A stretch of DNA of 64,000 bases from Phoronis australis (Eukaryota > Animalia > Phoronida), in NCBI GenBank assembly GCA_002633005.1, contig NMRA01000005.1, positions 287,678 through 351,677 on the forward strand. The letters run 5' to 3'. Under the pieces are notes generated by a model. It did no database searches, had not been told where the DNA came from, and saw only the letters and a list, made by a program, of their open reading frames with translations. A program made the translations under genes and the position numbers. This document shows positions 1,604 to 45,946 of the stretch, piece by piece. Positions within the stretch are counted from its first letter, which is position 1. Each line of letters opens with the position of its first letter.

Positions 1604-1847
1604 GGTCACCAGATAGGCCAGATGTTCCATCTGAATACCGGTGGGTTCTTTGTACCAACAATGCCCCAGAACCAGCGAGGGTTCTGCCCAAGTCAGATTC
1701 CCCAGCCCGCTGGCATGCGACCCCAGAACAGCTTTCAGGTGGTGCAGGGTGGCGCCCAGGAGCGGCAAACCCGCCCCGCTGGCCAGGTGCGCAGCATTTC
1801 CAATGCCCGACCCATCACGGGCCAGCAACCTACTGGCTCTGCACCAG
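1604..1847 (+). CDS. Exon A1, PABPC Pro/Gln-rich linker-like (GHQIGQMFHLNTGGFFVPTMPQNQRGFCPSQIPQ...ARPITGQQPTGSAP)
   Basis: cacacag acceptor, G|gtaaga donor, phase 0>1. GFFVPT.P.NQR and AR.ITGQQ resemble the invertebrate PABPC linker as I recall it. Confidence 0.75.
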
Positions 1848-4800: not shown

Positions 4801-7800
4801 TATTGGTGAGATGATGCTATCCTCTTGTTTTCGGTTGGAATTGAGGTACTTTGCGCCACCTAGTGGCCATTTTTCCTGTTTTCAAGTCTGTTTTTGGCAT
4901 CCACCCCTCGATCAATCAAACCATTCTAAGGATGATTTTTAAAATTGGCATGTATGTTGTCAGTGTGAAGAGGGTGGTTGACTATAACGAATTCGACTAC
5001 TGTGGCACCTCCTAGTGGTAGTTTTGTTTTGTTTTGTGCCCATAGCTGCATCTCCGTAACACACTACATGATCTTTATCATTTTTTTTTAAATTAATAAT
5101 TGTATTTTTATCAAGCTAACAACAGATGACTTCTTTCAGGCCGATCCAATGAAGGCTGTGCCCCATAGTGGCAATTTATATTTTCCGTTTTCCTTCATTT
5201 CTCTGAAGTTCCTTGAGAGATTTTTATGAAATTTAGTAAATATGTTTCTATTAAAGAAGCGATGGCATATTCCCGTTCTCAGATGGATTGGATTTTTTGC
5301 GCCATCTAGTGGCTATTTTTATGAAACAAATAAACAACCCCAGAAGTACACCGTTTGCGGTGCATTCGTGGTGCATTCAACACTCTGCGTTGTTCTTGTT
5401 ATAAATGATAAATGTGCCACAAAACTTGGAATTTTTGGCTAAAAGTTCGCTCTAAGTGGGCTTTTTAAGAGGACATTTCTCGAATAACCTCTCCACTATC
5501 TGGACACTGACACCAGAAGTTGTAACACCAGGGGCATTTCTTCTGCATAATTTTCCGAATGAACGTCCATATGTGTTTCATTGGAGGGGCTTATCTAGTA
5601 CGGAAAAACCTGGTACTAGGAAATAGCTTTCTAGTGTGCATTAGTAATATTATTCGTTTTCAAGTTGTACCTTTTTATTTACTTCAATAAAGTAACTGAA
5701 TTTTGTAAACCTACCTTGCAATTTTATTTTTATGTGACCTTTTGACTTAGTGTATTGCACTTAAAGATTATCAATGATTTCAATCTATTCATTTGTTGCA
5801 TATTCAATATTTTCTCCTTAATTTTACTTGTCACTTAACAACTCCATATCGAAACTAGCAGAATTTTGCTAGTGAACTTATGATTTGTAAACAATTCACG
5901 TTTCGATGCCATAATCAAAGAAATAGGGCCTTGCTAGTATCACATAGCCAACTGGGTTAGGTCAAACTATGAGCAACTCACAGGTCAAACTATGCTTCAC
6001 ATGATCTAATGTATCACATGTGGGTCAGAATCACTGGCCATCTGATAGCTGGCACGAGCCTAGTAAAAACCTCAAACATTCCCTTGCTGTTTTGGAGTAT
6101 CTTGTGACAGTTTTTTAGATTGTTGTTTGGGAATCGGGGGTTTGTGCTTGGCACTTTGTGAAAAAATGCGGTGAAATTGACAGCTTTCCTGTGAGATATT
6201 CATGATATGAAATGAAAGTCATGATGATCTGATATAATAGAACATTCAGAATGTAATTTCCAACATGCTATAAACAGTCCCACAAAATAAGATTGGTCCT
6301 AACCCCGCTTGTCAAGGTAAACGGTGGGGTTTGGAAAATTGAACTAGACCGTATTTATCCACCTTGGCTGAGTCGCGCTCAGCTCACGATCAAAGGGATG
6401 CCACCAAGCTGCTCTATTAACTAAAAGATTTTGACTGTGAAATTATATTGCTGATTTTGATGATGCTATTTATTTGTTACAGTAAGGTATCGCATAATAT
6501 TCACTTGCAGTTCATGGTATACCAGCCAACCAGCCGGGTTGTCCAGTTGCCGCCATGCCAGGGGCACCGGGACCTCGTCCCTCGTATAGATATGTACCCA
6601 GTGTACGCAACCAGCCCCAACCACCGATGCAGGGAGTACCAGCTGGTCAGCAAGTAAGTCTCTTTTCTCAGGGGCCACTGTAATTCCTGTACACGGCAAA
6701 AAAGCTGTCAAAATGACTTGAAATTCCCTTTCTTGATGACTGAATGGAACCCAAATTTGTCGGAGTAGTTTTTCCCTCATGACCGAAAATGAAAAGTAAT
6801 TACAGAATCTGCCGTCATGACATGCATAAGTGGTATTTTGGGTGATTATTTTCGGTCTTGTACTCAAGGTGATGATTAGAATTATAGAGTTAGCAATGCT
6901 TTAACTGTGGAATAGAGAGGAGGCTGTGTAGCCTGGTGTGACAGGTGGAGGCTCCTTTCACTTTAAGTCGTGGGTTTGAGTCCCATTGCAGGGACATACC
7001 CAGGTTTCAAAACCCTAGTCACCAGCTGGGCGAGTGAGCCAGAAAATCTACTCGCCCAGCCCGAAGTTCAGTCGCCTGGCCGTTTGCGTCTGTCTCCACA
7101 AACTTGCTGCCAGTATCAATAAAAATCATCGTTTCTTGTGCTGATGTCACCATCTATTAGGGCTACCGTCGGTATTCACCCTTATAAGCGCCCAGGGTGC
7201 TTAGAAAAATTCGTTTCGGAAAGGGGGCGCTTTGTTGTAGCCTAAGGCGGTTGAAATCCGGTCTCTGAAACGGGTGAAATCGGAAGCTAGGATTCATCAA
7301 ATTTACGTGCTGTGACGTATCTATAACCTATAACAGACTTTTTACAAAACTGTGGTGCATTGCTATCAAACTTTGTTGTTAAATTACGATTTTTTTAAAA
7401 AAAAAAGTGTGCTCAAATCCCCACTTGCCGACTGATGCGTCGCTGCCTCGCGATCGTCGATAGAGCAACTTGAATTCTTGAGTAAAAATACAGTTTCGAC
7501 CCAACAAATTTCTTGAAATCCTCCTCAAGTTTTCCAAATGGTGTCCCTAAAATTTTTAATTTCCTGTGGAGTCGGGGAAACTGCAGATTAAGTCCAAATC
7601 TGTGCTAGCTCGCATCCCGCAACACGAGAAAAATCTGGACAAACACACATGTTGTTGTCACATGACGTTCGTTTTGAAGTTAGTCTGCAAGTGTGCGGCG
7701 AGTGAGTGAGTGTGTGCGTGTCATTAGAGTTCATTTGCCAGAATAGCAGTCCCATATATGTATAGGCCCTAGCGTGCGCTTCTTGGCCATGTGCTCATTA

Positions 7801-10800
7801 ACACTGGTCAAGTTTTGATTTGCAGTTTTTACGTGTACAAAGTAATCTGGATTCCTGTTGAGGGAAAAGATCTGTACGGGAAAGATACAATACTATACAA
7901 TCCCGTTGACAAGTACGCTGCGTCTGGTCTGAAAGGCCTGATCATAGTGGGACACGTTACTCGCAAGATCAGTAAAACTTTTGCGTTATTTTGGAAGCAC
8001 TGCGGAAGTTTGAACAAGTCCCCGTTGTGGAAAAAAGACCACGTGGCAAAGGATTGTCGTTTTAAGGAGACTGAATGCTGTTTCTGTCACAAGAAAGGTC
8101 ATATAGAGGCTGTATGTCTAAGCAAAAGAAAGGCTAGGGATAAAGTAAGCAGTACTTTTAGCAAGGCCAGAACAGAAAGTTAATCACATTTCGAATAGAG
8201 ACCCAATTCACATTGTTGTTCATATATGCAGCAAAAAACAGACAGTTGACGTAGATACTGGATCACTGGACAATTTCATTTTGGAGAAGGTTTGGTTTAA
8301 GGTAAAACGGCTACTACAGATATCGGTAATTACAAACTTAGGTTATATAATATGTTGAACTGTATACATAAGTGGTGAATAGAAAGTTAAGTAATATATT
8401 ACACCATAATATTCAGCCTCGAAGGGCAGATACAACCATGTAATAACCCATAAAGTTATCTCACTACTGAGATAACATTTTGGCGGGAAAGCGAGGCCGG
8501 ATTCGAACCCGGGCCTCAACAGTTGCGAGTCGCCGACTTTACCACTACACCACTCAGCGGCTGACGTCATCGAACGTGAAAATAGAATGCTTAAATGAGC
8601 ACGCGCAACAATCGCATGTTCAGCAAAGGGCATTGCACCGACATTTATACACTATGAAAAATAAGACGCATAATATCCATAAAAACGATATTTTAATTCA
8701 GTGAAATTTTTCTCTCGTGTTCTCTCACTTGTAAATCACCGATCTCCAATTTGAATGCAGGTGTCGTGTGGTCGGGATCCTTTGACTTGAGCATTATAGT
8801 CAGTTACTAGTGGTAACCTACTTTAGCAGACGATATATTCTCGGTCGAAGCTTACCGTGATAAAATGGGCAGTAAGCTATAACAGTTGCTAAACCTTAAT
8901 TTATAGATTCACTTTATTTCTATTTTGTTTTATTTTGCAATTGGTTTTGAGTAAAAGCATTATTTTACAAAAATATCTTGGCTTTTCTTAAAAGGTCACG
9001 ACCTCTGACCCCGGTCCTCTGACATAGAAAGTAGTTACAAAGCTGAGGGGAGTCGAGAAAGGTAGATCAATTCATTGCAATGTTTCTCGTTCAGTATGTG
9101 GTATAAATAGAATTCATTACATGTTCTCAGTCGTTATCCCCCTTATATAGAGCCCTCGTGAATTTTGTAGAATTATCACCCTCGGGCTAAAGCCCCTCGG
9201 GCAATAATTCTCCAAAATCCTCTCGGGCTCTAGATAACGGGGGATAACGACTTCGCCATGTAATAATCTATGGAAGCATAACAGCAACACCGGGACAGCG
9301 ACATGGGAAATATAAGCATAAACACGGAAGTAAGGAAAACTGGTTTGAGTGAGGGAGGGATCAAAGAGAATTTGAGTGAAAACTGACATTTGGAGAGAAT
9401 TTTGGACCATGGCCCAGTGTTGCAACGAGATCACGCGGTACAATTAAACCAATAATCGTAGAACAAAGAGGGTCACTGACCCGAGAATCCAAACAATATG
9501 ATAATGAGGACGAAGCTGTATAGCTTACATAAAATAATTTAATACTTAAATAATTTTTATATGCGCTTACTGCGAAGCGATACCGAAGCTAGTTTACAGT
9601 GAAACAACACGTGTAGATGATATAAAAGGTCATGTATATTACGATAAACTAAACTACTACAGATATCGGTAATTACAAAAGTTATATAATATGTTGAACT
9701 GTAAAGGTGTGTGACAGTCTGCCACAGATGCAGTAGAAAGATGCATCCGCCCACCCAAGGGAGAGTGAGCGAGGCTGACAAAAGGAACATAAGAAAAAGG
9801 GGCAAAAGTAAGCACCTAAATAGGAAAATACGAAAATACGAACAGGGAGTGGTACAGCTAGGCAGCATGACAAAACAAAAACAAAATTATAGAGCGACAC
9901 AAACAAGGTGTCGAAATCATAGTAACTGAAACCCAGAGGAATATAAGGCTAACATAGATAAAAACTAAGGATTATACATAAGGAACATATCAACCAACAA
10001 AAAACATGCTGTCTATATAGGCATAAGTAAACAGAAATGGTTAAGATACATACAGATAAGTAACAGCAAACGGAGGCACCGTCAAAAGTAAACCTATAAA
10101 AAGTATTGAAAAGTGCTAAGTGGAGAATAACCCATTATAGAGCATGGGGTAACCCAACAAGTAAAAGGGGGCAGGAAAGACTGCCCAGGAGGGAGAACCC
10201 CGAAAAGGTGAGTGGAAAGGGCATGGCAATGAAAATGGAGAATGAGTGAATTAGGACACTGGCAATACAGGCGCCCTAGGGTGTTAAATGGGGTGAGTGA
10301 AGTAGACGCTGGAAATACAGGTGCCCCGTGATGAAAAGGGGGTGGTGAGTGGGGGGGAGGCACTGGCAATACAGTCGCCCCCAGGATGAAGAGGCGGTGC
10401 AAGGAGGGGAAGCACTGACTGTAGAGCCGCCCCTGGGTGGTGGATGATCATGTCAATGAAGGAGTGGGAATGTTAGCAGCAGGCAAGTTTAATGAGGAGA
10501 GTTGAATGTAGTTCTTGAGCGCGTCAGACTTCCAGCGACCCATACGCTGAATGGAGTCTGGAATTTGGAGGGTAGCAGCGGAGGTGGCTGCACCGATACG
10601 AAAACTATGAGATTTATAGCGTTGAGGATCGAGACCGACGCACCCGAGTACCAAGTTAAGGTGGCGAGTGAAGTAAGAGCGAGTTATGGGGGAACCATTA
10701 GGTAACTGGAAGAGAGGGCTGGAAGAGTGGTTGGAGAGAGTGAGGTAAGTGTTGAAAGATTGCAACAGGGCAATGGGGACCAGTAGAAGGGGGGATAACG

Positions 10801-13800
10801 AGAGTGGTAGGGGTGTGATCGTGGTGTTTGAAGTGGGAGCTAGTGAGAGACATGGACATAGAGGTGACTGAGACGTCAGACACCTGGAAGACAGAAATTG
10901 GGGGTGAGGCAGAGGTGGTGACAGTAAATTCGCTAACACGAAGGAAGGCGTGAAAGGCGATAGAAAACATAACAGCACAGAGAGATGTGTGGGAGTGAGA
11001 GTTGAGAGCAGAGGGTAAGGCGTTGAGGTGAAGAATAGGTGTAGTTATGGGGAGCCGGGTGTCCACGGATGGCCGCGAATTGGACACCCCCTTCAGAATT
11101 TTCTTGACTAGAAAGGAGGAGGTAGGGTCAGGCAAGGAGTCCAGTTTATGAATGAAACCTATGGCGGAGACATAGGTAGAGATGGTGGATGCAGTTAAGC
11201 CAGACGAGAAGAGATGTGCTAGAGACATGGGAAATATAAGCATAAACAGGGAAGTAATGAAAATTGGTTTGAGGGAGGGAGGGAAAGAGAATTTGAGTGG
11301 AAACTGAAATTTGGAGAGAATTGTGGACGATGGCCCAGTGTTGTGACCAGACAAAGAGATCACGTGGTACAATTAAACCAATAATCGTAGAACAAAGAGG
11401 GTCACTGACCCGAGACTCCAAACAATATGATAGTGTGAATGAAGCAGTATAGCTTACATAAAATAATTTACCGTAATACTTAAATAATTTTTATCTCCAT
11501 CACACAGTCAGTATTTCACGGCAAATGAAAAACCATTACCAGTTTTGGGAATTTTCAGTAGAAACGCAACATTACAGTCCGACTCGCAACATACAACAAA
11601 CATTGAATTAGTAATAAGCAAACACGATTTGAATATTGTTGGCTGAACGGCAGTTCGACAGTTAAAGATTGATGTCACTGCACTTTGTAGGAATTCCATT
11701 TTGCGTGATGACAACCAAAATGACAAAGTTGGTTTTTGTCAGAATATAGTTTGACAGTATTATTAGTTGTATTGTTTTGTTTTGTTATTCAGTTTGATTG
11801 GCATGACCCCTGAATTAAGTACAATGATGATGTAATTTGTTTTCTACAGAATGGTATGGAACTTTCTAGTAGACTGAGTTCAGTAGTGATGATGTAATTT
11901 GTTTACTGCAGTATTGTGTGGAACTTTCTAGAAGACTTCGGCATGTCAGTGATTAATGCAGTCTGGAATATTCTAGATACTAGTATATGTTTGTAGAATG
12001 ATTGGGTAGATTCAGGAAAGTTCTAGAATGAATGTGCTTGAATTGATGTACAGTTCCAGAACAATGCATTAGGCTATAAATACACAAGCACGGGTTTGTG
12101 TTAGAGAGATCAAGTCAGTCGAGTCCAAGAAGATATAGTCAGTTCATCAGAAGTTCAAGAAAGTTAATCAGGAGAATTACGGTTAAGTTGCAGTGAAAGG
12201 AATCAGCAGTTACAGCGATAGTCAATAGAGAGCCAGCTATAGAGACAGCAGGTTATTGAATTGGCGAGTGTAACATTTGCTGAACGTGTCTCAGAAGTTC
12301 ATCACAAGTCAAGGCTTCGCAGCACTGGCTGGAGCATAAACAGACATTACGTCGGACGTTTTGTTTGAGTAAGGCTTGTGAACATACAGTCGGGATTAAT
12401 AAAGGATTAACTCGAACCAGTCTTCAGTCTATCGTCGCACCGAAAGCTATTAGCACCAGTTTGTAACAACCTGCGCCCACCCACACACGGGGAAAAACGT
12501 GACAGTGTTGTTTTTCATGAGGACAAGAAAAGTGATTTAGAGTTTCAGCACATGTGCAAAAATCATCTGCGATGAATTTCCAGACCTATTCAAACCTGGG
12601 ATGTTTAAAAGGTTTCGAATTAAATATAAAATTCAAGCCTGATATGTCCAACCAATATTTTGCAAACCTCGCACTGTTTGCATTACTGGATGACTTGAAT
12701 CAGGCATAAGATGCTGATATTAAACGAGGAATTTGGGAAACTACACAATTCAGTGAGTATGGAATACCAGTTGTCCCGATAAGAAAAGCCCTGCAGCTTC
12801 CTGACTAAAGTAAATGGAGATTAAGAGCATGCGGAGATTATTCAATAACGATAAATCCTCAGCTTGAAACTCATCGACATCCGCTACCCCTGCCTGAAGA
12901 TCTTATGTGAAAATTAATTACTCAGTGGCCGCTTGTATTTCACAAAAATTGATTTGGCGGATGCGTATAATCAGATTAAATTAACTTTGGAAAGTCAGAG
13001 ACGTCTGGCACTATCCACACATCGTGGAGTTCTTCTACAAAAGAGATTGCCATTTTGGGATTAGTTCAGCCCCTGGTTATTTCTAGGATATCCGTCAGTC
13101 TATTCTTGATCAAGACTTTTTGGAATGCATGCTATCCACATTATACATCAATACCCAATAGAAAATGTGATGTAGATGCCATGCAAATAAATTGAGGTCA
13201 CGACCACAGCTGACACAGAGGCTGTAGTCGGACACTGAACCAAAATAATCGACGAATCACAACAGTACAAAGATTCATGATTTTGGAATGGACAAGACAG
13301 AAACAAGTTTTATTTGCCAGAAATAATATCCAGCTATCATCACTACAATTAGATGTGATCGTTACTGCCAAACGTACATTTGAAGCATTGAAATCAGTGT
13401 CCGCTATTCGCAACTGGGCTTCGACCGTCAAGGTACATACTTCGGTTAGAATTACATGTATTACTCAACGCTGAAGTGGTTAAAAATTAAATCGTGATTC
13501 CGTAAAAGGACTGTCCGTAGACTCCGACTCGGCTTCACTCGCCAAAGCCGCTGGTGCCAGAGCATATAGTTCGTATGGCCTCAAATACGCAGTCTGCTGA
13601 TATGGCAGCAATTAAGGTCTAACTCATTACCTATTTCACCTATGGTATGGCCTGAGTGTCATCTTCATCCCCATCTCCATACCTGCAACGTACTATTCAA
13701 TGTTTTCTACTGATGACATCATATGGCGGGAAACCAAATTATCATTAACTTTTCTTTAAAATTCCTTAATTCTTTCCCAAAATAAGCGCTTGTTTGGTTT

Positions 13801-22800: not shown

Positions 22801-25800
22801 TGTACTCAAGGTGATGATTAGAATTATAGAGTTAGCAATGCTTTAACTGTGGAATAGAGAGGAGGCTGTGTAGCCTGGTGTGACAGGTGGAGGCTCCTTT
22901 CACTTTAAGTCGTGGGTTTGAGTCCCATTGCAGGGACATACCCAGGTTTCAAAACCCTAGTCACCAGCTGGGCGAGTGAGCCAGAAAATCTACTCGCCCA
23001 GCCCGAAGTTCAGTCGCCTGGCCGTTTGCGTCTGTCTCCACAAACTTGCTGCCAGTATCAATAAAAATCATCGTTTCTTGTGCTGATGTCACCATCTATT
23101 AGGGCTACCGTCGGTATTCACCCTTATAAGCGCCCAGGGTGCTTAGAAAAATTCGTTTCGGAAAGGAGGCGCTTTGTTGTAGCCTAAGGCGGTTGAAATC
23201 CGGTCTCTGAAACGGGTGAAATCGGAAGCTAGGATTCATCAAATTTACGTGCTGTGACGTATCTATAACCTATAACAGACTTTTTACAAAACTGTGGTGC
23301 ATTGCTATCAAACTTTGTTGTTAAATTACGTTTTTTTTTTAAAAAAAGTGTGCTCAAATCCCCACTTGCCGACTGATGCGTCGCTGCCTCGCGATCGTCG
23401 ATAGAGCAACTTGAATTCTTGAGTAAAAATACAGTTTCGACTCAACAAATTTCCTGAAATCCTCCTTAAGTTTTCCAAATGGCGTCCCTAAAATTTTTAG
23501 GTTCCTGTGGAGTCGGGAATAACTGCAGATTAAGTCCAAATCTGTGCTAGCTCGCACCCCGCAACACAAGAAAAATCTGGACGAACACACATGTTGTCAC
23601 ATGACGTTTGTTTTGAAGTTAGTCTACAAGTGTGTGCCGAGTGAGGGAGCGCGTGCGTGTCATCAGAGTTCATTTGCCAGAGTAGCAGTCCCATATATAT
23701 GTAGGCCCTAGCGCGCGCTTCTTGGCCACGTGCTCATTAACACTGGTCAAGTTTTGATTCGCGGTTTTTACGTGTACAAAGTAATCTGGATTCCTGTTGA
23801 GGGAGAAGATCTGTACAGGAAAGATACAATACAATAGAATCCCGTTGACAAGTACGCTGTGTCTGTTCTGAAAGGCCTGACCATAGCGGGACACGTTACT
23901 CGCAAGATCAGTAAAACTTTTGCGTTCTTTTTGAAGCACTGCGGAAGTTTGAAGTGTACAGCCACGGCTAAATACGCATGCCCTGAATAACACGCTTACA
24001 CGAAAGTCACGCATTTCTAAAGATATGCGTGGATTTTCACCGCTCGTCCTTCTGAGCGGCTTTTACCAGGATCCAAAAGAGCGCGGTACCAGAGTCTGAC
24101 TCAGTTGGGTTGATCGCATTGTGTGGTGCAAGCAAGACCCAATTAAGTGTAACTACCCGACCTTAAACTATAGTTAACATTTCTACCTGTACAATACTGG
24201 CGAATTTTCAAAATGCATTAACCAACAGTTTTCGTTATAAACAAATACAGCGGTATTCAGGTGGAAAAACAACCAAGTTTGGTTTTCAATTTTTAAAAAT
24301 CGATGATGTATTAAACTAAAAACTACAAACATTGGGTACGATTGAAGATAAACGACTGTGGGTATTGATATACTCGGTGGATTTACAAATGCTGATCAGA
24401 GTTAACAATATTACGTGGATTATTCTTTTAATATACAACTAAGCTACATTGAAACATCTATAAACAACACACAGTGACTAAATTAGATGTCAATAACTTT
24501 TAAAACATCGCTTATGGCCCAGTGCATGCCGAACTACTTTACTCAAGGAGTAAGTACACTAACCGGAAAACTGATGCGCCAACTTCGATAGCTAGCTTGT
24601 AGTTGTAATGGAACACGTGTAAAGACAAGAAGACGGCTAGCTTTGTTGTCAACAAGAGAGTGCAAGCAGTGGATGAAGTTGTTTAGTGGGCAAGAACTGT
24701 GATTTCATTTCTATGCGCCCACATATTTATATGTGGACGCATTATGCCGTCATCTGCTTCCGTCCGTCCGTCCGGGCAGCATCCGTCTGGCGTCTGCTGC
24801 TCTATCTCCAAAACCGATTGACGTATGTTCTTGAAATTTTGCACATGTGTTCTTTTCATGGATGGGACGGCATGAGCGAACTTCCAGACGGATCCGAACT
24901 GGTGTGTCCCCTAGTGGCAATTTCAGTTTTTTACGTTTAACCTCTGTTTCTTCAAAGGTCCTCAACATATTTTCATAAGATTTGGTAAAAGAAAAGGAGG
25001 GAAGAAAACAGGCAAGGCAAAGTACAGAAGGATAGGGATTTTCCAAAGGGAACAAGTCCCCGTTGTGGAAAAAAGACCACGCGGCAAAGGATTGTCGTTT
25101 TAAAGAGACTGAATGTCGTTTCTGTCACAGGAAGGGTCATACAGAGGCTGTATGTCTAAGCAAAAGAAAGACTAGGGATAAAGTAAGCAGTACTTTAAGC
25201 AAGGCCAGAATAGAAAGTTAGTCACATTTCGGATTGAGATTCAATTCAGATTGTTGTTCACATATGCGGCAAAAAACAGACATTTGACGTAGATACTGGA
25301 TCACCGGCCAATTTCATTTCTGAGAAGGTTTGGTTTAAACATGGGAAACCTGTTTTATTTCCATCACACAGTCAGTATTTCGCGGCAAATGAAAAATCAT
25401 TACCAGTTTTGGGAAAATGCAACATTACAGTCCGATTCGCAACATACAGCAAACATTGAATTAGTTGTAAGCAAACACGATTTGAATATTTTTGGCTGAA
25501 CGGCAGTTCGACAGTTAAAGATTGATGTCACTGCACTCTGTAGGAATTCCATTTTGCGTGATGACAACCAAAATGACAAAGTTGGTGTTGTTTGTCATGA
25601 GGACAAGAAAAGTGATGTAGAGTTTCAGCACGCGTGCAAAATCATCTGCGATGAATTTCCAGACCTATTCAAGCCTGGGATGTTTAAAAGGTTTCGAATT
25701 AGATATAAAATTCAAGCCTGATATGTCCAACCAATACTTTGCAAACCTCGCACAGTACTTTTTGCATCACTGGATGACTTGAATCAGGCATAAGATGCTG

Positions 25801-28800
25801 GTATTAAGCGTGGAATTTGGGAACCTACACAATTCAACGAGTATGGAACACCAGTTGTCCCGATAAGAAAACCACAGCTTCCTGGCCAAAGTAAATGGAG
25901 ATTAAGAGTATGCGGAGATTATTCAGTAACGATAAATCCTCAGCTTGAAACTCATCGACATCCGCTATACCCCTGCCTGAAGATCTTATGTGAAAATTAA
26001 CTCGCTGGCAGATTTTATTTCACAAAAATTGATTTGGGGGATGCGTATAATCGGATTAAATTAACTTCGGAAATTCAGAGACGTCTGGCACTATCCACAC
26101 ATCGTGGAGTTCTTCTACAAAAGAGATTGCCATTTGGGATTAGTTCAGCCCCTGGTTATTTCCAGGATATCATGGACAAATTAACTAGCGATTTAAATGG
26201 CGTGGTTGTAATACTTAATTGGATGATATTTTAGCAAGCGGTCGCAACGTAAACATCTTCAAAATCTACGAAACGTACTCCAGCGTTTGCAAGACAGTGG
26301 AATGAGATGTCGCTTGGAAAAATGCTCATTTGGTCAGCAAACTGTAGAATATACTTAGGTCACATGCATTCACGTGATGGTATTAAGAAAGGTAACAAAG
26401 TGGACGCTATTTTGAAAATGCCAGCCCCATCAGATGTTTCTCATCTACGTTTGTTCCTTGGATCTGTTCAATTTTACGGAAAGTTTATTCCGAACTTATT
26501 TACCTTGATTGCTCCTCTGAGTCATTTGACGCGCAAAGATGTGCCATGGAAATGAGGAGCTGAGGAGAATGCAGTTTTTCAGCGTTTAAAAGAAATAATG
26601 TGTACAGATGCAGTTGTGGCTCATTTCGATCCTAAACAACAGTTGGGAATTTCATGTGATATGTACTTCTAATGTTGGAATTGGAGCCATTCTATTTCAT
26701 CGCTATCCTGATGGTAGCGAACATCCGATTGCCAACGTTTCAAAGACTCTCACGGACACTCAAAGGAGGTACAGTCAAATTCAACGTGAGGCTCTGGCAG
26801 TTGTTTTCGCACTAAAGAAATTTCACCAATTTCTTTTCGGAAGATGTTTCATTTTATAACTGTTCACTAACCTTTAGTTTCTATTTTCGAATCAACTAAA
26901 GGAGTTCCAGCTATGGCTGCTAATCGACTAGCAAGATGGGCGTTACATCTTGGCCATTATGAATACACAATAGAGTATCGGAAAACATCTGATCATTCTA
27001 ATGGAGATGCACTGAGTCGCGTACCCTGCGGTAAGGATCTAAAATTCGACAGGGAGGAAGAACAAGCAGACGTGAATGTGGTCTGTTCTGTTAAGCAAAA
27101 AGTAAGTCTACAATTGAACCTTGTTAACTGTAAATTGCTTAATAAAGAACCTAGAAAGGATTCTGACATTTCTAAAGCAATGAGATATGCCATATAGAAG
27201 GTTGGCCAGTTTCTATGGATTCCGAAGAATTGAAAGATACCTTGACCACGTACAGAAGATGGATGTCGGATAGTTATTCCAAAGAGATTACGAAAACAGG
27301 TGTTGGATCTGCTTCATATTGGCCATTGCCGAATGCAGAGAATGAAGCAACTAGCACGGACAGTGGTTTATTGGCCACATATTAATGAAGATATTGAAGA
27401 AGTGGTACGTCATTGCACTGCTTGTACTGAACATGAACACAGATCACCGAAAGCAGCTACCGTATTCGCCGTAATAACCACCCAGGGCGATTAGAAAAGT
27501 TCGGTTCAGGGGGGCGCTTATTAGAACCCAAGGCGGTTGAAACCCGGTATCCGAAACGGGTGAAATCGGAAGCTAAGATTCATCAAATTTACGCTCTGTG
27601 ACGTATCTGTAATCTATGAACTTTGAAAGACTTTCAACAAAACTGTGATGCATTGTTATCAAACTTTGCTGCTAAATTACGATCATTTTACAGAAAATTG
27701 TGCTGAAATCCCAGGGCGAAATTTCGCTGACTGACTACCTCGAAATCGCCATCTTCGATATGGCAACTTCAATGCTTGAATAAAAATAGTTTCGACTCAA
27801 GCAAATTACCTGAAATCCTCATTAAGTTTTATAAGTAGCGTCCCTAAGATTTTTTTTAAGTTCCTGTGGAGTCTGGATTAACAGCAGGTTTAAGTACAAA
27901 TCTGGGCAACATTGTGCCATCTACATGTATGATCAGCAACACGGCGAGAAAAATGTCTGGGTGAACACACATGTTGTTGTCGCGTGGCGTTTGTTTTGAA
28001 GTTCGTCTGCAAGTAAGCGAGCGCGTGCGTGTCACCAGAGCTCATTTGCCAAAGCAGAGACCGTCTTTTGGCCAGAGCCACGGAATCTAACGAGCTAGAT
28101 GTGCATTGTGTCTAAAGAAATTTGCACAAGCAGTAGGCCTAAACCAGAGCTTGTTTCATTCAGCACTTGCCGGTCTCGTGCTAAAAACGTTCGACATTTG
28201 TCTCGGTAAGGCCCATATTAGTCGCCGTGTAGCTGGATGCGTACGTAACTATCTGACAGTTATTTTTCGGTGTAAGGGTGTGTAAGCATTCACTGTCAGT
28301 TGTCATTTTATCAGATATTCGCCTTAAAAACACCAATTATTGTTAATCAACAATCCATCTCAAAAATAATGCAAACATGTTTTATAGTATTAGAAATTGT
28401 CGGAAGTTAGTGCCAATATTTATTTCTTACCGATGCTATGCTACCCGTTTCAGTAAATGGATAGTTCCCGACTAATGTCTTTGATGACGGGTTCACATTC
28501 ATATGTAGCGCGCGCTTCCTGGCCACGTGCGTTTAACACCGAGTTATTTTTATTCATGCGACAGTCGATGTGACTACTGAAAGGTCAGACCATACACGGT
28601 CGTGGCGAGAGTAGCAACGCTGTTGCGTTCTTTTTGAAGCGTTGCATTACTTTGAAGTGTATAGCCACAGCTTAATACAAACGTAGCTGCTATGTGCCGC
28701 TGGTGGTCTAGAAGAGCCGTGCAAAATTTTTTTGATAAATTGAAAACGTTACTGTAGCCGAGTTTTAGGACTGTATAGGTACGTCATTGTTCGCATGTAC

Positions 28801-31800
28801 AAGGCGTTCACGGATGGGCGCTTATTTCAGGAAAGTCTGAAAACACGTGGGGGGGGCGCTTATAGGGGCATGGGCGGTTATTACGGCGAATACGGTACTC
28901 ATCCATGGATGCTACCCAAAAAGCCATGTTGATGATGCCATAAACTTTCTTGGAACAAACTGGTTGCTCATGGTCGATATGTATTCTAAATGCCCATGTA
29001 TACAGCCAACATGTTCACTGTCAACAAAAACAACAACGGAATTGCTTGAAAGAGAGTTTGCGCATTTTGGTTATCCTCACACGTTAGTAACTGATAATGC
29101 GGCAGCATTTCACTCTGAAGAATACCAGGTGCCGAGAACGTGGTATTGTACACTTTACAGGTGCCCCCTAACCACCCAGCTATACAAATAGAGCTGCAGA
29201 GCGTTTGGCACGGACTTTCAATCAATCTCTGCAGAAATCTTCTTTGTCGCCAAAAGCAGCGTTACAAGGGTTTTTATTGAATATCGTCGTACACCTCTAG
29301 ATTCTGGTTATTCTCCAAGTGAACTCTAAATGGAAGACAAATTCGTTGTAAGCTAGTCAGCTTACGTCCTTCACCTGCTTATGTAACGCAAGGGAAGCAA
29401 TCAAGAAATGCTGCGAAACCACAAATTGCTGAGTCCGATCAAACAGGTATGTGTCAAAAATTCATATATATACCATTGGAATGCCATGTAATGCCTTGTG
29501 CATTAGGCCTTGTCAAAGTGGGGACCCTCGCTGGGTACCTGCTGTTGTGACCCGAGTTATGGGTCCACGTTCTGTCAAAGTGAAAGTCATGCCAAGTGGT
29601 CCAATCTGGCATCGTCATATCGATCAGTTGAGATCAAGGTATTGTTCTGAAGAAGATACAGATCCTGGAGATACCACATTTTTGTCAATTGGAGAATGCG
29701 ATACAGATATTGACAGACTAGCAAGGAAAACAGAAGAGGATTCAACTACAGCAACAGAGATGCATACAAGAAAATTGGAAAAGCAGAAGCGCCCATGACC
29801 CACAACTTCCAACGGGAAATGAACATGGGCCACACAACTTGAGAAGGTCTGAGAGACTTAAAAAAAGAATTAGCTTTCGCTTGTTTTAATATCGGTGTGC
29901 CGGTGTATCTTTGGCAATTGTCACACAGAGTAGATTTTGACAAAAAGCATATCGTTGTGGTCAACTTAAGGTAATTTATAATTAATGTTCAAGATTAATG
30001 ACAAAAATGCAAAAGTTAAAACTCAAGTAATCATTGTTTAGTCTGTCTGAGGTTGAAGTAACCGTGCAAATGCTCTGGAGCATTCCACTCACCCACGGCA
30101 GATGGCTTTTCAGGCTTGAAATCAAACATGAAGCTGAAACCTAAACCCCAATGAGCTATATGTGTGTGTGTGTGTGTGTGTGTGCGCGTGCGTGCGTGCG
30201 TGTGTGTCATTGGTAAACACATTAGACACTACGGGGCCTTCGATAGTAAACTACCCCAACTAATGTGTATGCTGGAGTTCAGACCCTGAGCGGAATGGTC
30301 TTTAGTGTAACCAGTTTCAAACATTAGCCTTGGTTGATCACCATTTACTGACAGTACGTGTAATCCTACGTACCTTAATTGTAATCACTGTAGATAAGAA
30401 AAGTGCTAATTAAATATGAAGTTGTTGCAAGTGTTTGTACGGTAAGACCCGCCCAACAATTTTGGACAAAAATAATTACCCACGATTTTACATTTTGCAA
30501 AAACTCTCATGCTGCGTGACCACAATTTCTCAAAACAGATGGCAGATGCTTGTAGTACTTTTAGCTTATACTTGGTGTAACTTGAGCTTTGAAGGAGAAT
30601 TAGGGAAACCAATCCACTTGTCCACCATGCTGCTTCCTAAATTTGTGAGATTTTGCCAAGGTGTACCTCATGCTTGTAGTATGAGATGCGGTCACTTACT
30701 TAGAGACATGGTAGGTTGTTTCGGCAGACGTTTCAACCTGTCCGCCAGGTCTTTGTCGATGAATGAGGGATTTACCGCCTTTCGCTGGTTACATCATTAC
30801 ATCACGGACTACCGAGAATATGTCGAAGAGGTTGAATAAGTTGAAGAAGATTTGCGAGCCAATGTATACCAGGAATGGATGTTCACAGACCCCCCTAGTC
30901 GTAAATCCACTGACTAACTCAATGGTCCCTCCGTTGCCATCTCGATACATAAGAGGAGTGTCTGAACCCCTACAACACACTTACAGAACGCTGCATGGAA
31001 TTTCTTCTTACATGAAACTTATTAACACCCTCCGTTTTCTACTAGTCAGACCCAAAAATCCAACCCCGATGGCTAAACAATTTGGGGTCATATGCCAGCT
31101 GAAGTGTGACCAGGATCCCAACCACACCTACATTGGAGAAACCAAGAAACCGTTCCTTACCAGATTCAAAGAACCTCAGAATTAAACTAGACAGACCAAC
31201 AGCAGTACGGGGGAACACATATTGGCGACTGGGCATTCTCTCTCTTGAGTCATCCAGGATCCTAGCCAAAGAACAAAATTGGTATACTCGCAAGCTCAAA
31301 GAGTCAATAAACATCAGCAGTCAGCGCGCCCTCCCTTGAACCGGAACTGTGGACTCCAGTAACCCCGTGTGTATTCCAGCATTCTTAACCAGCGAAAGGC
31401 GGGAAATCCCTCATTCATTGACAAAGACCTGGTGGACCAGGTCGAAACATCTGCAAACAACCTACCACGTCTCTTAAGTAAGTGACCAATTGCATCTCAT
31501 ATTACAATGCCTCTAGAGACGAACCTATTCTCCAGTACCTTGTCGTAATTTTTTTCTGAGTTTTCATTTTCTGTTTTCAGGTGGAAGAGATGGCTGTTCG
31601 ACGTGGTCACCACTCTAAGGAGCAGACCAAGTAAGAATGTCACAATGAAACTTTATTGAAAAGGTGCATGGCTTGTATCGCTGATTAAGTATTATGTGAG
31701 AATGATTGTGTGTAACAGACAGACTGAGTCATGTAACAATTGATCAGGAGCTGTCAAAATGTGCTATGTTTAAGCTGCTATACATCTGCCTTCCGTTAAA

Positions 31801-34094
31801 GAAACCAAACTTTTAACTTGTTAAACCCGCGCCCCGCCATTGTAAAATCGATGAGAAGGTTGGTTTGAGCTTAGAAAGAACTTAACAGTTTGTTGTCAAT
31901 GTTGAAAACCATTCCTAGCCCGCATAAAATTACCTGCCATATGAAAGCTACCTTGTTGAGTGTGCATGTCTTGAAAAAGCTCAGAAATCACCTCTAATGT
32001 GGGTGAGGAGCATTTCGATTCCTTGATGCAGTAACATCAAAGTATGTTTTTTTTGACAACAGATGTGGTTATAGCCGGCAGTCTTAAGAGTGTCATCTGT
32101 TTTAACACATTGTAGTTTTTGTCCTGCAAATTGTTTTTAATGAAGTTACTTGTTCAACTTAGGATAATGCTAACTAGCCAAGAAACATGGTTGTTAGTCT
32201 TCCTCCAGTGGAAGCCACACGCGTGCATGCAATCTCACTATGAGTTTAGGTATTCTCATGAACACAAGTATTCCCTCATAAGGTATATTTTTGCATGCAC
32301 CAGGATTATTAGACATGTTTATTTTCCAGTGACCTTAATTCCTCTATGTCCAGGTTGTTTGTGAGGGACCAGGTCCGTAGGAAGATTATCTAATAATTAA
32401 TGCATGGAGGGGAAACGAACCAGTTTGACTTGCCAAACTTATGCCTAATTCCTGTCGCCACCACCTCTTCCTCTCCCCAGTCTCCGACTGTTGCCACATT
32501 ACAGCATTTTCCCGTTGCTCTCAACTTGTTCGATTCTATAGCCCAACAACAAGTTGACAAGTTCACCTCTGTAGCCAATATCTTAACGACTGATTAACTC
32601 CATTCTGGCATTTATGTTTGGAGGGCCGGCTCTCTTTTGTTCGATAATTGCTCTTATCTCCGATCAGATCCTATCAGCCTGACTGGGCAGTGCTGCCAAA
32701 ATGAAAGTTAAGTTATAACATATGTGAACATAAACCTATAGATAATAGCAATTCTGAATTCCTTGTTAAATGCTGATCATGTTTAGTTTTTGAATCACCA
32801 AAATTGCCAAACTACAACAGAAATTAAGACAATCTGTTCTTCCAGGTTAAAGTAACCCAGTGAGGCCTGGTAGATAATTGGCCCGCTTGTTGTCATACGG
32901 GACACGACTGTCCTGGGCAGTTAACAAAGGAGCCAGATGTTATCGCACGTTCAGAACCCCTCGCGTCTGGAAAAATTGCTGAACGATAGAATGCTGTGAT
33001 GAATTTTGTACTGACCCCCTCGCTTGCCAGACGGGGGCAAACCCCTAGAAGGCAGCCATCACAACTTGAGTAACCATTTTTCAATAAAATTTCACTGAGA
33101 ATGAGACCTAGGAGCCGGCACAGATGGTTGTGTGCCTCAAATGAACTGTCAGCTGTTAGCTGACACCTCGTGCCAAAATTAAGTTAGTTGACAAATGTTC
33201 TCTTGAATTTTCTCTTACTGTCTTCCTTTTCTTGACTGCCCCCGGCCATACGCCGGTGTCAGTTGCTTCAGTTTAACCCTCGGAGGCATGAAAAGTATTG
33301 GAGGCACATAACCTCTTTGGCTCCACACTTCCTTAGGCTCTGGAGAGAACTATACAGTGGCCATTTTCTGTCCTTCAGTCACTTGTCCATTTCAGTAGGG
33401 AAAAGTTGCACACAATACGCACATGTTCTTGACCCATAGGTGTGTCCTTGGGGTTACTGGCTTTCAACTTGTGTGTTAAATTTGTAATCTTTATTGTTTT
33501 GTTGCAGTTCAGAGTCATTGGAGAGGTGTGGAATCATCCATATTAGTGATGATGATGGTGATTCGTATAGTGCAGATGATGCCAGCTCTGATGATGTCGC
33601 CAGCACTGATGACGACGATGACAATTACCGTGGTGCACGGGCAGGAAGCCACAAAATGATGTATGGTAACTTCAGGGCTGCTCAGAAAAAGAGTCTCACG
33701 AACAGAAATGATAACCAAGTTGCAGGTGCTTCATCAGTGAACACTTCCAGAAATGCTACCAGTGATGTGGCAGCACATGTTGGCCGAAACTTAAGAAGTG
33801 CTGATGAATCGATGAAGAGCAGTAGAGCTGTGTGCGATGAGTTTCCTTGTCGTATGTTGCCGTTTGCACTGAACAGCCAGGGTGTACCAACTAACTGGTT
33901 ACACAGTTCGCCTGAAGATGCTGGTCTTTATAAAATATTTGAGCTCAAGGAGGCTGATTTTGAATACCAGGTGATAAGAAGTGAGCTGGATCTTGCACAG
34001 CTTAAAGTAACTCGAATCGAGCGAGTGCAAAATCACGTGCTTCTGGACACATATAAACACCAGATGACACACCTGAGTAATCATAGACCTCCTG
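1604..34094 (+). CDS. Partial spliced gene: duplicated PABPC-linker-like exons joined to a PARP-family catalytic-domain start (both ends not found in window)
   Basis: Exons 1604-1847, 6511-6653, 19621-19819, 22453-22595, 31581-31630 and 33508-34094 all have AG/GT boundaries. Phases chain 0>1>0>1>0>2>1 with no stop codon (1366 nt). Joining them into one mRNA is inferred. Confidence 0.6.
2695..3850. repeat. Tandem array of 350-550 bp composite units marked by palindromic GCGGAACGGTTCCGC motifs
   Basis: AAAACTTGTGAGGATCACAAAAGTATTGTTTGC recurs near 2711, 3251 and 3598. Confidence 0.8.
4525..5400 (+). mobile_element. HINE-like copy, 5'-truncated
   Basis: Aligns with 20470-21352. Confidence 0.72.
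6511..6653 (+). CDS. Exon B1, PABPC linker-like (VHGIPANQPGCPVAAMPGAPGPRPSYRYVPSVRNQPQPPMQGVPAGQQ)
   Basis: cttgcag acceptor, CAA|gtaagt donor, phase 1>0. YRY...VRN resembles the YKY...VRN/MRN motif preceding MLLE in PABPC. The ORF-track frame here is not the coding frame. Confidence 0.72.
6920..6996 (+). repeat. tRNA-derived SINE-like head (copy at 22861-22938)
   Basis: A-box-like TGTAGCCTGGTG and B-box-like GGTTTGAGTCC; no full cloverleaf. Confidence 0.45.
8370..9268. mobile_element. Non-autonomous element with a long terminal hairpin (possibly Crypton-like) containing a tRNA-like segment
   Basis: Foldback 9116-9266 centred on CCCTCGGGctaaagcCCCTCGGG; CCATGTAATAA motif near both ends; A/B boxes at 8491-8558 on the minus strand. 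Confidence 0.5.
10448..11372 (-). pseudogene. Frameshifted DIRS/Ngaro-type tyrosine recombinase
   Basis: TISTYVSAIGFIHK and DTRLPIT in the N-terminal part, FHAFLRVSE (catalytic R), then YKSHSFRIGAAT and MGRWKSDALKNYI in a second frame. Confidence 0.88.
11737..12504 (+). mobile_element. Solo LTR, 768 bp
   Basis: TGTCA...TGACA ends, 5-bp TSD GTTTT/GTGTT (empty site GTGTT near 25586), TATAAATA near 12075, AATAAA near 12398. Confidence 0.85.
14284..15450 (+). mobile_element. HINE-like copy, 3'-truncated, with a single-n join at 15027
   Basis: Same head and repeat units as 20046-21352. Confidence 0.72.
16484..18984 (+). mobile_element. Internally deleted Kolobok-like DNA transposon
   Basis: TTAA at 16480-16483 and 18985-18988; imperfect TIRs AGGCGAATGCCACCC / AGGAGCATGTCACCC; THAP fragment (+) and convergent KolX-like fragment (-). 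Confidence 0.75.
16649..16843 (+). pseudogene. Truncated THAP zinc-finger N-terminus
   Basis: MPLCC...FLLP...RKW...LRVC; stops before the final His. Confidence 0.7.
19621..19819 (+). CDS. Exon A2, diverged duplicate of A1
   Basis: cacacag acceptor, G|gtaaga donor, 199 nt, phase 0>1; differs from A1 by in-frame indels and substitutions. Confidence 0.72.
20046..21352 (+). mobile_element. Helentron-associated (HINE/DINE-like) element with internal tandem repeats
   Basis: T-rich site, subterminal IR (ATGTGCCCAC / GTGGGTGCAT), GTCC microsatellite, repeated units with CCYAGTGG cores, 3' palindrome then TTCTTGTT; an empty-site version lies near 2130. Confidence 0.75.
22453..22595 (+). CDS. Exon B2, duplicate of B1
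   Basis: Sequence and splice sites appear identical to 6511-6653. Confidence 0.72.
24706..24987 (+). mobile_element. HINE-like 5' fragment
   Basis: ATGCGCCCACATATTTATATGTGGACGCATTATGCCGTC head and GTCC repeats. Confidence 0.7.
25056..29850 (+). mobile_element. Degenerate Ty3/Gypsy (Mag/K02A2.6-like) retrotransposon internal region, 5'-truncated, no LTRs seen
   Basis: Two CCHC knuckles, protease DTGS, RT (CGDYSVTIN, KIDLGDAY, RLPFGISSAPG), RNase H (YSQIQREALAVVFALKKFHQFLFGR), integrase HHCC and core (VDMYSK, VTDNA), in Gypsy order; many stops and frameshifts. Confidence 0.92.
27460..28895. mobile_element. Non-autonomous Tc1/mariner-pogo-type element inserted in the Gypsy integrase
   Basis: Perfect 20-bp TIR CCGTATTCGCCGTAATAACC and TA duplication at 27458-59 and 28896-97. 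Related partial copies at ~7165-8010, ~23106-24000 and ~34985-35720 (reverse). Confidence 0.88.
30161..30207. repeat. (TG)n/(CGTG)n microsatellite; similar (CA)n tract at 57300-57349
   Basis: Direct reading. Confidence 0.95.
30675..31535 (+). mobile_element. 5'-truncated Penelope-like retroelement (GIY-YIG) with inverted pLTR copy
   Basis: YIRGVSE, RPK, GVIC.LKC, YIGETKKPFLTRFKE and RKLKESINI motifs; 30675-30791 is an inverted copy of 31386-31506. Confidence 0.88.
31581..31630 (+). CDS. Exon C, 50 nt (VEEMAVRRGHHSKEQT)
   Basis: Long pyrimidine tract plus ttttcag acceptor, AA|gtaaga donor; phase 0>2 bridges exon B2 to exon D exactly. Confidence 0.6.
33508..34094 (+). CDS. Exon D: Asp-rich segment followed by the N-terminal part of a PARP/ART catalytic domain
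   Basis: ttgcag acceptor (phase 2), G|gtgagt donor. VPTNW...YKIFELKEADFEYQVIRSEL...KVTRIERVQNHVLLDTY fits the P..W...L....EY..V...I.RIERVQN..L...Y pattern that opens PARP7/11/12/14-type domains. Confidence 0.75.
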
Positions 34095-34583
34095 GTGAGT
34101 GGAATTGTTAAATTTTTGGCAAAACAGTTGGAGTTTCTTTGAATACAGCTTTTCGAATAAGTTTCAGGTCATGGGAAATGAGCAGCAATTATAAATTTTT
34201 AAAAGTATCGGAAACCCTGTATTAGCATGCTATGAACATTCCCACTAAATAAAATTGGTTCTAACCCCGGTGTTTAAGGTAGACGGCGGGGTATGGAAAA
34301 TTGAACTAGACCGTATTTATCCACCTTGGCTGAGACGCGCTCGGCTCATGCTCAAAGGGATGCCGCCAAGCTGCTCTATTCATCGAGTCACGAGCGAGGA
34401 TAATTGACTTCGCTCATGCGGTTATGATCAGCTGATTACAGTCTAGCCTAACAACTGTACTTTTTATGGAGAGAATTTTACGTAGTTTTTACTGTAATAT
34501 TTGAAAAGAGGAGCGAAAACAAATACGAATACAACTTTGAATTTTTCAAATCGGCCCAGGATTAGAGATTTTGCAACACAGAA

Positions 34584-41481: not shown

Positions 41482-41706
41482 NNNNNNNNNNNNNNNNNNN
41501 NNNNNNNNNNNNNNNNNNNNNNNNNNNNNNNNNNNNNNNNNNNNNNNNNNNNNNNNNNNNNNNNNNNNNNNNNNNNNNNNNNNNNNNNNNNNNNNNNNNN
41601 NNNNNNNNNNNNNNNNNNNNNNNNNNNNNNNNNNNNNNNNNNNNNNNNNNNNNNNNNNNNNNNNNNNNNNNNNNNNNNNNNNNNNNNNNNNNNNNNNNNN
41701 NNNNNN
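41482..41706. other. Assembly gap (225 N)
   Basis: Run of n inside a GC-rich MITE. Confidence 0.99.
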
Positions 41707-44974: not shown

Positions 44975-45946
44975 TCAAGAAACAGAGCAATGTTTGCTTT
45001 TATTTTTCTTTTTTTTGGCAGGTTCAAGTGGTCCAGTGGTCACCCTAGAGGGTGACGGTGTCAAGTCAAAGTCATCACTCACGTAAGATATCTTCAAACC
45101 ATTTGGCCTTTGATAGTAACTGTCTTCATCGGAGTCCGAGTCACTGGAGCAAGTATCACACTGGTCGTGATATAAGTCCGGACTCTTAGTGGCCGTCACA
45201 CTGCCAACAACTGTCTTTGACGGAGACGGCCGTGATATTGGATTCATCTTTTCATCTTCTGAGCCGAGATCTTGATTCAATCGTTCCACAATGACTTGTC
45301 GTCTTGTTTTTAAATGTGGGGATGCACCATAATCTAGAAGAGACGAAACTGCAGTGCCTGTTGGATTATTAGGGTCAAATCTGTTGGCAAATGGATCCTG
45401 TGAGGGATCAAAGCGAACAGTTAAATTCTTGTCTGCACCAGCACGACTCATGTCTCCACGGAGATTACTCTTGAGGGAAGACTGGGGGGATTCCTGCCCG
45501 GTCAGTTTATCCTGCATGAAGTGTTCCAGGTTAATATCGTAGGCACTGATAGGCTGACGTCCGCGACTGTTCATAGAGATATCTTTGGCACCAGGTGGCA
45601 CCTGCATCTGCCTGCTGCACTCTACAGAACAGAAGATCACACCGTGCTTAGGCAAGAACGGCTGACCCAACAGAGACTTGTTACATGTTTGGCAGGAGAA
45701 GCACTGGTCAGTGGCATGCCAGTGTTGACTGTCATGTGTCATCTGACCTTCGTCCACAGCTATGTGTTCACCGCACGTGTCACAGTACTCAGAGAACAGT
45801 CTCTCAAAACAGTCGCAACAATATGGCCGCCCCTCGCGCATGATATATCGTTGACCGCCTAATTGCCGATCACACTCAAAACAACAGAAGTGTTTCATAT
45901 GCCAACTCCTCGTCTCAGCCTCTGTGCACTCGTCGGCAAATATGAT
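44975..45946 (-). CDS. prickle: Prickle coding exon 5 (LIM2-LIM3, C-terminal CSVS)
   Basis: tttcag acceptor, [22 protein letters not shown], stop TGA at 44977-44975. Confidence 0.95.

What the first reader, a model, noticed from the sequence alone, without database searches (positions are those of the whole stretch)
1604..34094. Apparent chimeric gene: poly(A)-binding-protein linker exons spliced in frame to a PARP domain
Seen: six exons with canonical splice sites chain in phase 0>1>0>1>0>2>1 without a stop. Recalled knowledge: exons A and B carry GFFVPTMPQNQR, SQIPQ, ARPITGQQ and YRYVPSVRN, which parallel the PABPC linker between RRM4 and MLLE (Drosophila-type GFFVPTLPSNQR, ARAITGQQ, YKYTSNMRN). 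In PABPC the next exon would encode MLLE (QKQ.LGE.L). I see no MLLE exon; instead a 50-nt exon supplies exactly the phase shift needed to enter an exon ending in a PARP catalytic-domain start. Inference: exon shuffling built a PABPC-derived, possibly poly(A)-binding or stress-granule-targeted ADP-ribosyltransferase, functionally reminiscent of RNA-binding antiviral PARP12/13. I know of no described PABPC-PARP fusion.
Basis: partly seen in the sequence, partly recalled or inferred. Interest (0 to 1): 0.78.

Follow-up and report, generated by a model that had tools for sequence, protein, structure and literature searches.

The report
PABP and PARP gene fragments juxtaposed
In this animal (likely a mollusc), copied exons of the poly(A)-binding protein gene sit in frame just upstream of the first exons of a PARP enzyme gene, but no RNA-binding or catalytic exon lies in the window and no read joining the two parts was listed, so this is likely a transposon-rich pile of gene fragments rather than a working RNA-binding PARP.

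Summary
The six exons, their splice sites and the stop-free 455-codon chain are real. A/B/A'/B' are PABPC linker copies. D belongs to an uncharacterised molluscan PARP-UBA family and ends before the catalytic HGT motif.

The window has no RRM, MLLE, PARP-catalytic or UBA exon. Only one junction, B'>C, is a new phase match, and C carries its own in-frame ATG. RNA shows C>D (3 reads). B'>C was not among the listed joints, but 267 joints were hidden. Most reads come from other copies: the canonical PABPC and a D that is at least 3% different.

In favour of a real chimera: three in-frame deletions and no stop in the PABPC copies (chance about 0.003-0.008). A minor A'/B-like transcript also has a depth and sample pattern like D.

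Verdict: likely a young fragment pile or proto-gene without PARP or poly(A)-binding function (0.45). A full linker-PARP-UBA fusion, with its catalytic exons outside this window, stays open (0.25).

The parts
1604..1847 (+). Exon A: copy of the first PABPC linker exon, with a 10-codon in-frame deletion that removes the PRW segment present in relatives
   Evidence: E 1.3e-13 to P0037 (RRM+MLLE protein), 62% identity; alignment
6511..6653 (+). Exon B: copy of the second PABPC linker exon; identical to B'
   Evidence: 66% identity to P0037 499-545; 0 differences from B'
8012..13092 (+). Truncated copy of the LTR-retrotransposon remnant that also follows B', interrupted by other insertions
   Evidence: 91-92% matches to 25050-26171
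15027..15027 (.). Single-N contig join inside a multi-copy repeat, between the two A-B modules
19621..19819 (+). Exon A': more diverged copy of A with two in-frame deletions (17 and 8 codons); reads PRL where relatives have PRW
   Evidence: 54% identity to P0037; 14 nonsynonymous and 6 synonymous codon differences from A
22453..22595 (+). Exon B': differs from the main RNA (canonical PABPC) at 9 listed sites; the main RNA continues into a pre-MLLE exon that is not in the window
   Evidence: tables 3 and 7
25050..29800 (+). Decayed LTR-retrotransposon (RT, RNase H, integrase) in the B'-C interval
   Evidence: Pfam RVT_1, RT_RNaseH, Integrase_H2C2, rve
31581..31630 (+). Exon C: 50 nt, in-frame ATG at 31590 after three sense codons; likely the start-codon exon of the PARP-UBA gene
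   Evidence: C>D joint in 3 reads of X1, and 5 of 5 reads differ from the window at 31609
33508..34094 (+). Exon D: acidic low-complexity N-terminal region plus the pre-catalytic block of a molluscan PARP-UBA protein; ends at the intron position shared with relatives
   Evidence: family profile E 1e-22

Best explanation
Two PABPC linker exons (present twice) and two exons from the 5' end of a PARP-UBA gene lie in frame among transposon remnants, and they are likely dispersed partial duplicates forming a young, weakly transcribed fragment pile that would encode at most a disordered Gln/Pro-rich plus acidic polypeptide with neither RRM nor PARP active site.

Steps. (1) Shown: the pieces are intron-containing copies with the parents' splice sites. 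(2) Shown: the main RNA for both parts comes from copies that differ from the window. (3) Inferred: ectopic recombination at repeats brought the segments here, the A-B module was then duplicated in tandem, and the B region was homogenised recently. (4) Inferred: the PABPC module has been translated in some young ORF, because its frame survived three deletions. B'>C splicing may occur, at roughly even odds. (5) Inferred: after D there is no catalytic exon to reach, and read-through stops five codons into the intron, so this locus would give no ADP-ribosyltransferase.
For: No catalytic or UBA exon: a family profile finds only D among 3465 six-frame ORFs of the window (E 1e-22; next best E 17). 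No RRM or MLLE. Only retroelement domains among 135 plus-strand ORFs of 52 aa or more in 1-44900.

Canonical PABPC RNA continues past B into an exon absent from the window (594/589/201 reads; no match within 11 mismatches). D reads mostly differ from the window at 19 or more of 587 sites, while 0-4 (X1) and 0-2 (X2) reads per site lack the main variant. This fits a second, weakly expressed copy. No read carries the window base at three B sites (0 of 595, 626 and 740 in X1).

A vs A' evolves near neutrally (pN/pS 0.87-1.02). Both copies have lost the PRW motif. The ATG in C gives an ordinary N-terminus (conserved block at residue 139; family range 78-420 in 37 proteins). 0 of 40 family members carry RRM or MLLE, and 0 of 77 fetched proteins resemble PABPC.
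Against: All three exon deletions are in frame and no stop arose (joint chance 0.003-0.008 under neutrality, before allowing for the window having been picked for its open chain); all 12 splice sites are intact.

D vs the main RNA shows 11 synonymous and 8 nonsynonymous differences (pN/pS about 0.25). A 'window copy dead since duplication' model is not favoured, though not rejected at omega up to 0.2 (P 0.04-0.12 across omega 0-0.3).

Minor A'-like reads (4-9 at most sites in X1, 0-5 in X2, 0 in X3) and B-like reads (9-12, 2-3, 0) track D (9-26, 3-12, about 0). The assembly has N joins, so missing exons may be misplaced rather than lost. No baseline for allelic divergence in exons was measured.
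Confidence: 0.45

Rival explanations
1. A real functional fusion. The expressed gene splices PABPC-linker exons onto C-D and continues into PARP catalytic and UBA exons that lie beyond the window, across the 41482-41706 gap or on a mis-joined scaffold. The window is then a divergent or damaged allele or copy. The linker would act as a disordered N-terminal extension (condensate targeting or protease bait), not as a poly(A) binder.
For: Frame retention through three deletions. B'>C is in frame with no stop before the ATG. Expressed B-like, C and D sequences all differ from the window by about 2-5%, with similar depth and the same X1>X2>X3=0 pattern. D reads stop before 34130, as expected if spliced onward. 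D shows purifying selection. Unchecked notes report TRIM/RING-eIF4G captures in this genome.
Against: No B'>C joint among the 15 listed (267 hidden). The pattern rests on three runs of one study. A few window-like D reads beside the main type suggest two loci. The prickle gene occupies the opposite strand from 44978. No relative with such a fusion.
Confidence: 0.25
2. No chimera. C-D is the ordinary start of the species' own PARP-UBA gene (a divergent allele, with later exons outside the window). The A-B modules belong to a separate upstream unit, either a PABPC paralogue or a capture by a gene upstream of the window, which ends before C.
For: ATG in good context and ordinary N-terminal length. 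C>D reads. Purifying signal in D. Each named species appears once among the 40 hits. 9 kb with a retroelement separates B' from C.
Against: No catalytic exon in 30 kb downstream. About 90% of D reads differ from the window while a few do not. The matching depth of A'/B-like reads is left to coincidence.
Confidence: 0.22
3. The order A-B-A'-B'-C-D is partly an assembly product: contigs joined at the single N at 15027, and/or a collapsed repeat around B.
For: Two other single-N sites flank 97-98% tandem duplicates. The 822-bp identical tract around B. The N lies in a repeat.
Against: A and A' are only about 84% alike with different deletions, too far apart for haplotypes. A'-B'-C-D lies in one N-free stretch (15028-41481).
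Confidence: 0.08

Closest known systems
Drosophila 'tinkering loci' and composite proto-genes (bioRxiv 10.64898/2026.08.09.743762; abstract, outline and passages seen)
   Same: Intron-flanked fragments of unrelated genes gathered in a transposon-dense region, locally duplicated and weakly re-transcribed.
   Different: Here there are only two parent genes, there is no genome-wide enrichment test, and the composite transcript is not shown. The organism is likely a mollusc. PABP and PARP have 0 occurrences in that paper's main text.
Uncharacterised molluscan PARP (PF00644) + UBA_4 (PF14555) family, e.g. KAK3591964.1, XP_041366699.1, XP_025093467.1
   Same: D matches the pre-catalytic block (best 44% identity, E 9.7e-09) and ends at the same intron position.
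   Different: The window lacks the catalytic and UBA exons; no member seen carries PABPC sequence.
Cytoplasmic poly(A)-binding protein PABPC1 (four RRMs, linker, MLLE; PMC5780489, passages seen)
   Same: A/B match the linker from just after RRM4 to just before MLLE, with the same splice junction as the canonical RNA.
   Different: No RRM or MLLE in the window; linker duplicated, deleted in three places and evolving near neutrally.
Human PARP12/PARP15/PARP14, and RRM-bearing PARP10/PARP14 (PDB 2pqf, 6ek3; PMC10450202, passages seen)
   Same: Closest solved catalytic domains to the family (E about 5e-12); RRM-plus-PARP architectures already exist in PARP10 and PARP14.
   Different: The molluscan family has Glu where PARP12 has Ile in the last catalytic strand (triad role recalled) and a C-terminal UBA; the window has no CCCH, WWE, macro or RRM domain.

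Membership tests
PABPC | Four N-terminal RRMs | tested here: not met
   tblastn best E 1.6 in the window; only 1.6 kb upstream of A is visible and no genome is held
PABPC | Pro/Gln-rich linker homologous to PABPC | tested here: met
PABPC | C-terminal MLLE domain | tested here: not met
   best E 5.5; the canonical next exon is absent
PARP catalytic domain (PF00644) | Pre-catalytic helical block ending in the ER.QN motif | tested here: met
PARP catalytic domain (PF00644) | NAD-binding HGT and Tyr motifs and third triad residue | tested here: not met
   no exon in the 64 kb; sequence beyond the window or in the N gap is not testable
Molluscan PARP-UBA family | G.P..W block and intron before the catalytic exon | tested here: met
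   invariant G, P, W, L, E, I, R; genome-derived relatives break off at the same place
Molluscan PARP-UBA family | C-terminal UBA_4 domain | tested here: not met
PARP12/PARP13 (CCCH zinc-finger PARPs) | CCCH zinc fingers and WWE (recalled definition) | tested here: not met
   none among 135 plus-strand ORFs; none in 40 family members
Spliced chimeric gene | RNA joining exons of both parents (B'>C) | tested here: inconclusive
   not among the 15 listed joints, 267 hidden; loose ends before C not among the 12 listed, 66 hidden
Tinkering locus | Intron-containing fragments of unrelated genes amid transposons | tested here: met
Tinkering locus | Fragment density above the genome background; flanks shared with parental loci | not testable with these tools
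   no genome held

The most novel reading that the evidence does not exclude
This lineage has grafted the PABPC linker onto the N-terminus of a Glu-bearing PARP-UBA enzyme. That linker is the region that viral proteases cut; here it is duplicated, diversified, and twice stripped of its PRW motif. Together with TRIM/RING-eIF4G captures noted elsewhere in the genome, this would be an invertebrate set of translation-factor baits that turn viral shut-off proteases into triggers for ADP-ribosylation or ubiquitination.
Probability: 0.08. Interest if true: 0.82.

Novelty: new member of a known kind. Interest (0 to 1): 0.38.

Why it matters
On the best reading it is a non-Drosophila example of gene fragments piling up in frame: a snapshot of chimeric gene birth or decay, of modest interest. 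If the full fusion is real (0.25), it would be an undescribed PABPC-PARP protein in my searches, built on a PARP family that is itself uncharacterised. If it also works as protease bait, it would extend the NLRP1/CARD8 tripwire idea to invertebrate PARPs. One targeted read-mapping settles the main question.

Tried and rejected
- No whole genome is held, so the parent loci, the sequence upstream of A and synteny with prickle could not be examined.
- D against longer proteins in the word-indexed search: 0 hits among 1066 candidates. D alone against Pfam and PDB: 0.
- No run was listed as an RNA holder of 31400-34300; the four runs came by species label.
- A motif hit for HGT at 57110 sits in a short stop-bounded frame with no family similarity: rejected.
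- A RING/TRIM exon between or before the modules: none found.
- Metagenome scans: D found nothing; the family alignment gave 10 distant loci of 27-42% identity, not examined further.
- Earlier notes near this place or by sequence: none.
- B=B' identity as a sign of selection on the exon: rejected, because the identical tract runs about 570 bp into the intron.
- Positive selection on the linker: not shown (pN/pS 0.5-1.0, not significant).
- Paper searches for a PABP-PARP fusion: 0, 0 and 1 irrelevant listing. For the molluscan family: 1 unrelated listing and 0. Subscription papers are not covered, and no supplements were read.
Full report
Observation. All have AG/GT ends, and the chain gives 455 codons without a stop. 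The window is animal DNA with a prickle gene (PET and LIM domains) on the minus strand from 44978. All named relatives of D are molluscan, so a mollusc is likely. No whole genome is held.

PABPC part. Exon A finds 2 proteins among 31 candidates, both with RRM and MLLE domains (E 1.3e-13 and 5.1e-9). The C-terminal part of the best one matches human PABPC1 MLLE (E 1.2e-39). B and A' match the same linker (66% and 54% identity). No RRM or MLLE is in the window (best E 1.6 and 5.5). Against these relatives A lacks 10 codons and A' lacks 17 and 8 codons, all in frame; A has lost the PRW segment and A' reads PRL. In human PABPC1, linker residues 428-442, which include R436 and W437, mediate multimer formation, and viral proteases cut the linker (PMC5780489 and PMC5701138, passages seen). 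Equating the molluscan PRW with that site rests on recall. The modules A-B and A'-B' are a local duplication: about 84% alike in A, 96.5% over 3.5 kb around B, with an 822-bp identical tract, and each is followed by the same retroelement remnant. A single-N join lies between them at 15027.

PARP part. D alone has no Pfam or PDB hit. A search of 1.84 billion representatives with its last 88 residues gave 20 hits (best 44%, E 9.7e-09). Seven of the 20 carry PF00644, six of those with UBA_4, and two are unrelated. The family is molluscan, named only 'uncharacterized', 'hypothetical' or by an automatic PARP label, and 0 of 40 members of 406-1294 aa carry RRM or MLLE. Its nearest solved domains are PARP12, PARP15 and PARP14. 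35 of 37 full-length proteins that passed my motif filter (of 77 examined) have Glu where PARP12 has Ile (triad role recalled). D ends where genome-derived relatives also break off, just before the HGT motif. A profile of eight full-length members finds only D among 3465 ORFs of the window, so the catalytic and UBA exons are not in the 30 kb after D, unless hidden in the 225-N gap. Read-through past D's donor stops after five codons. C has an in-frame ATG at 31590; starting there puts the conserved block at residue 139, inside the family range of 78-420.

RNA. About a fifth of each of three stranded RNA runs from one study, plus one small contig set, was laid. Hundreds of sense reads cover A' and B', but nearly all differ from the window. 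They splice A>B at the same junction (211/210/70 reads) and continue past B into a pre-MLLE-like exon that is absent from the window (594/589/201 reads). These are the canonical PABPC. A minor class lacks the main variant at most A' sites (4-9 reads in X1, 0-5 in X2, 0 in X3) and at four of nine listed B sites (9-12, 2-3, 0). At three other B sites no read has the window base. So an A'/B-like paralogue or allele is transcribed, but not exactly the window's B. D is covered in sense at depth 9-26 in X1, 3-12 in X2 and about 0 in X3. Most reads differ at 19 listed sites (23 more rows hidden, part of them in a repeat), while 0-4 reads per site do not. C>D is joined in 3 reads of X1, from a copy that differs at 31609 and at D's first base. 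There is no depth at 34130-34210. B'>C is not among the 15 listed joints (267 hidden), and what precedes C was among the hidden loose ends or below threshold. The decisive junction is therefore undetermined.

Selection. A vs A' gives 14 nonsynonymous to 6 synonymous codon changes (pN/pS 0.87-1.02). A' and B against the main RNA give 0.75-0.88 and about 0.5, neither distinguishable from neutral. Yet three of three deletions keep the frame, where 8 of 34 indels in local non-coding duplicates are multiples of three, and about 32 substitutions made no stop (the 8 counted for A are my estimate). The joint chance is 0.003-0.008, before discounting for the window having been chosen for its open chain. 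D against the main RNA gives 11 synonymous to 8 nonsynonymous changes (P 0.002-0.006 against neutrality). A model with the window copy dead since duplication gives P 0.04-0.12. The six-exon phase chain adds only one independent junction, B'>C.

Mechanism. Most likely (0.45): intron-containing segments of PABPC and of the PARP-UBA gene's 5' end were copied into a transposon-dense region next to prickle's 3' end, probably by ectopic recombination (inferred). The PABPC module was then duplicated and kept in frame for a time, and the locus is weakly transcribed. Whatever is spliced from these exons would be disordered, without RRM or active site. This resembles the 'tinkering loci' described in Drosophila (10.64898/2026.08.09.743762; abstract, outline and passages seen), though enrichment could not be tested. 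Rival one (0.25): a complete linker-PARP-UBA fusion whose later exons are outside this window, favoured by frame retention and by the matching depth of A'/B-like and D reads. Rival two (0.22): C-D is the ordinary gene's own start and the PABPC module is a separate unit. Rival three (0.08): the order is partly an assembly product.

Comparison and novelty. It is not a PABPC (no RRM, no MLLE in the window), not a complete PARP, and not PARP12/13-like in architecture. RRM-plus-PARP proteins are already known as PARP10 and PARP14 (PMC10450202, passages seen). No PABP-PARP fusion was found in three paper searches; subscription papers and supplements were not seen. The boldest open reading is protease bait. 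PABP and eIF4G are cut by picornaviral proteases, and NLRP1/CARD8 use tripwire sequences (PMC8591160, passages seen). Two unchecked notes describe TRIM/RING-eIF4G captures in this genome. Nothing here tests that idea (probability 0.08). Verdict: observation confirmed, interpretation partly supported, interest 0.38.

Noticed in passing
window 44978-49900, minus strand: prickle gene: PET domain (E 6e-30) and LIM domains; its 5' end was not mapped.
   Followed up: partly
window 42559-44317 and 47388-49413: Two 97-98% tandem duplicates of about 0.9-1 kb, each split by a single N (43433, 48399); likely haplotype overlaps from assembly. The second overlaps the prickle PET exon and could be mistaken for an alternative exon.
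   Followed up: no
P0003, P0009, P0011, P0020 and relatives: A molluscan PARP + UBA_4 family, uncharacterised in its database names, with a PARP12/15-like domain but Glu at the last catalytic strand (35 of 37), so possibly chain-forming (triad role recalled); no paper found in two searches.
   Followed up: partly
window 6403-7225 vs the copy around B': 822 bp without a difference inside a 96.5% duplicate: recent gene conversion or a collapsed consensus.
   Followed up: partly
window 25113-27083 and 29055-29711: The LTR-retroelement family is transcribed in sense in X1 and X2 (depth up to 181) and almost absent in X3, the same sample pattern as exon D.
   Followed up: no
window 10451-11372, minus strand: Broken ORFs with a tyrosine-recombinase-like motif (label recalled), inserted in the first retroelement remnant.
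   Followed up: no
window 6264-6418, 22206-22360, 34226-34380: The same 155-bp repeat (89-90% alike) lies just before B and B' and 130 bp after D; a possible recombination substrate.
   Followed up: no
window 16480-18990: A segment bounded by TTAA with similar ends, resembling a Kolobok-type DNA transposon (label recalled), just upstream of the A' homology boundary at 19189.
   Followed up: no
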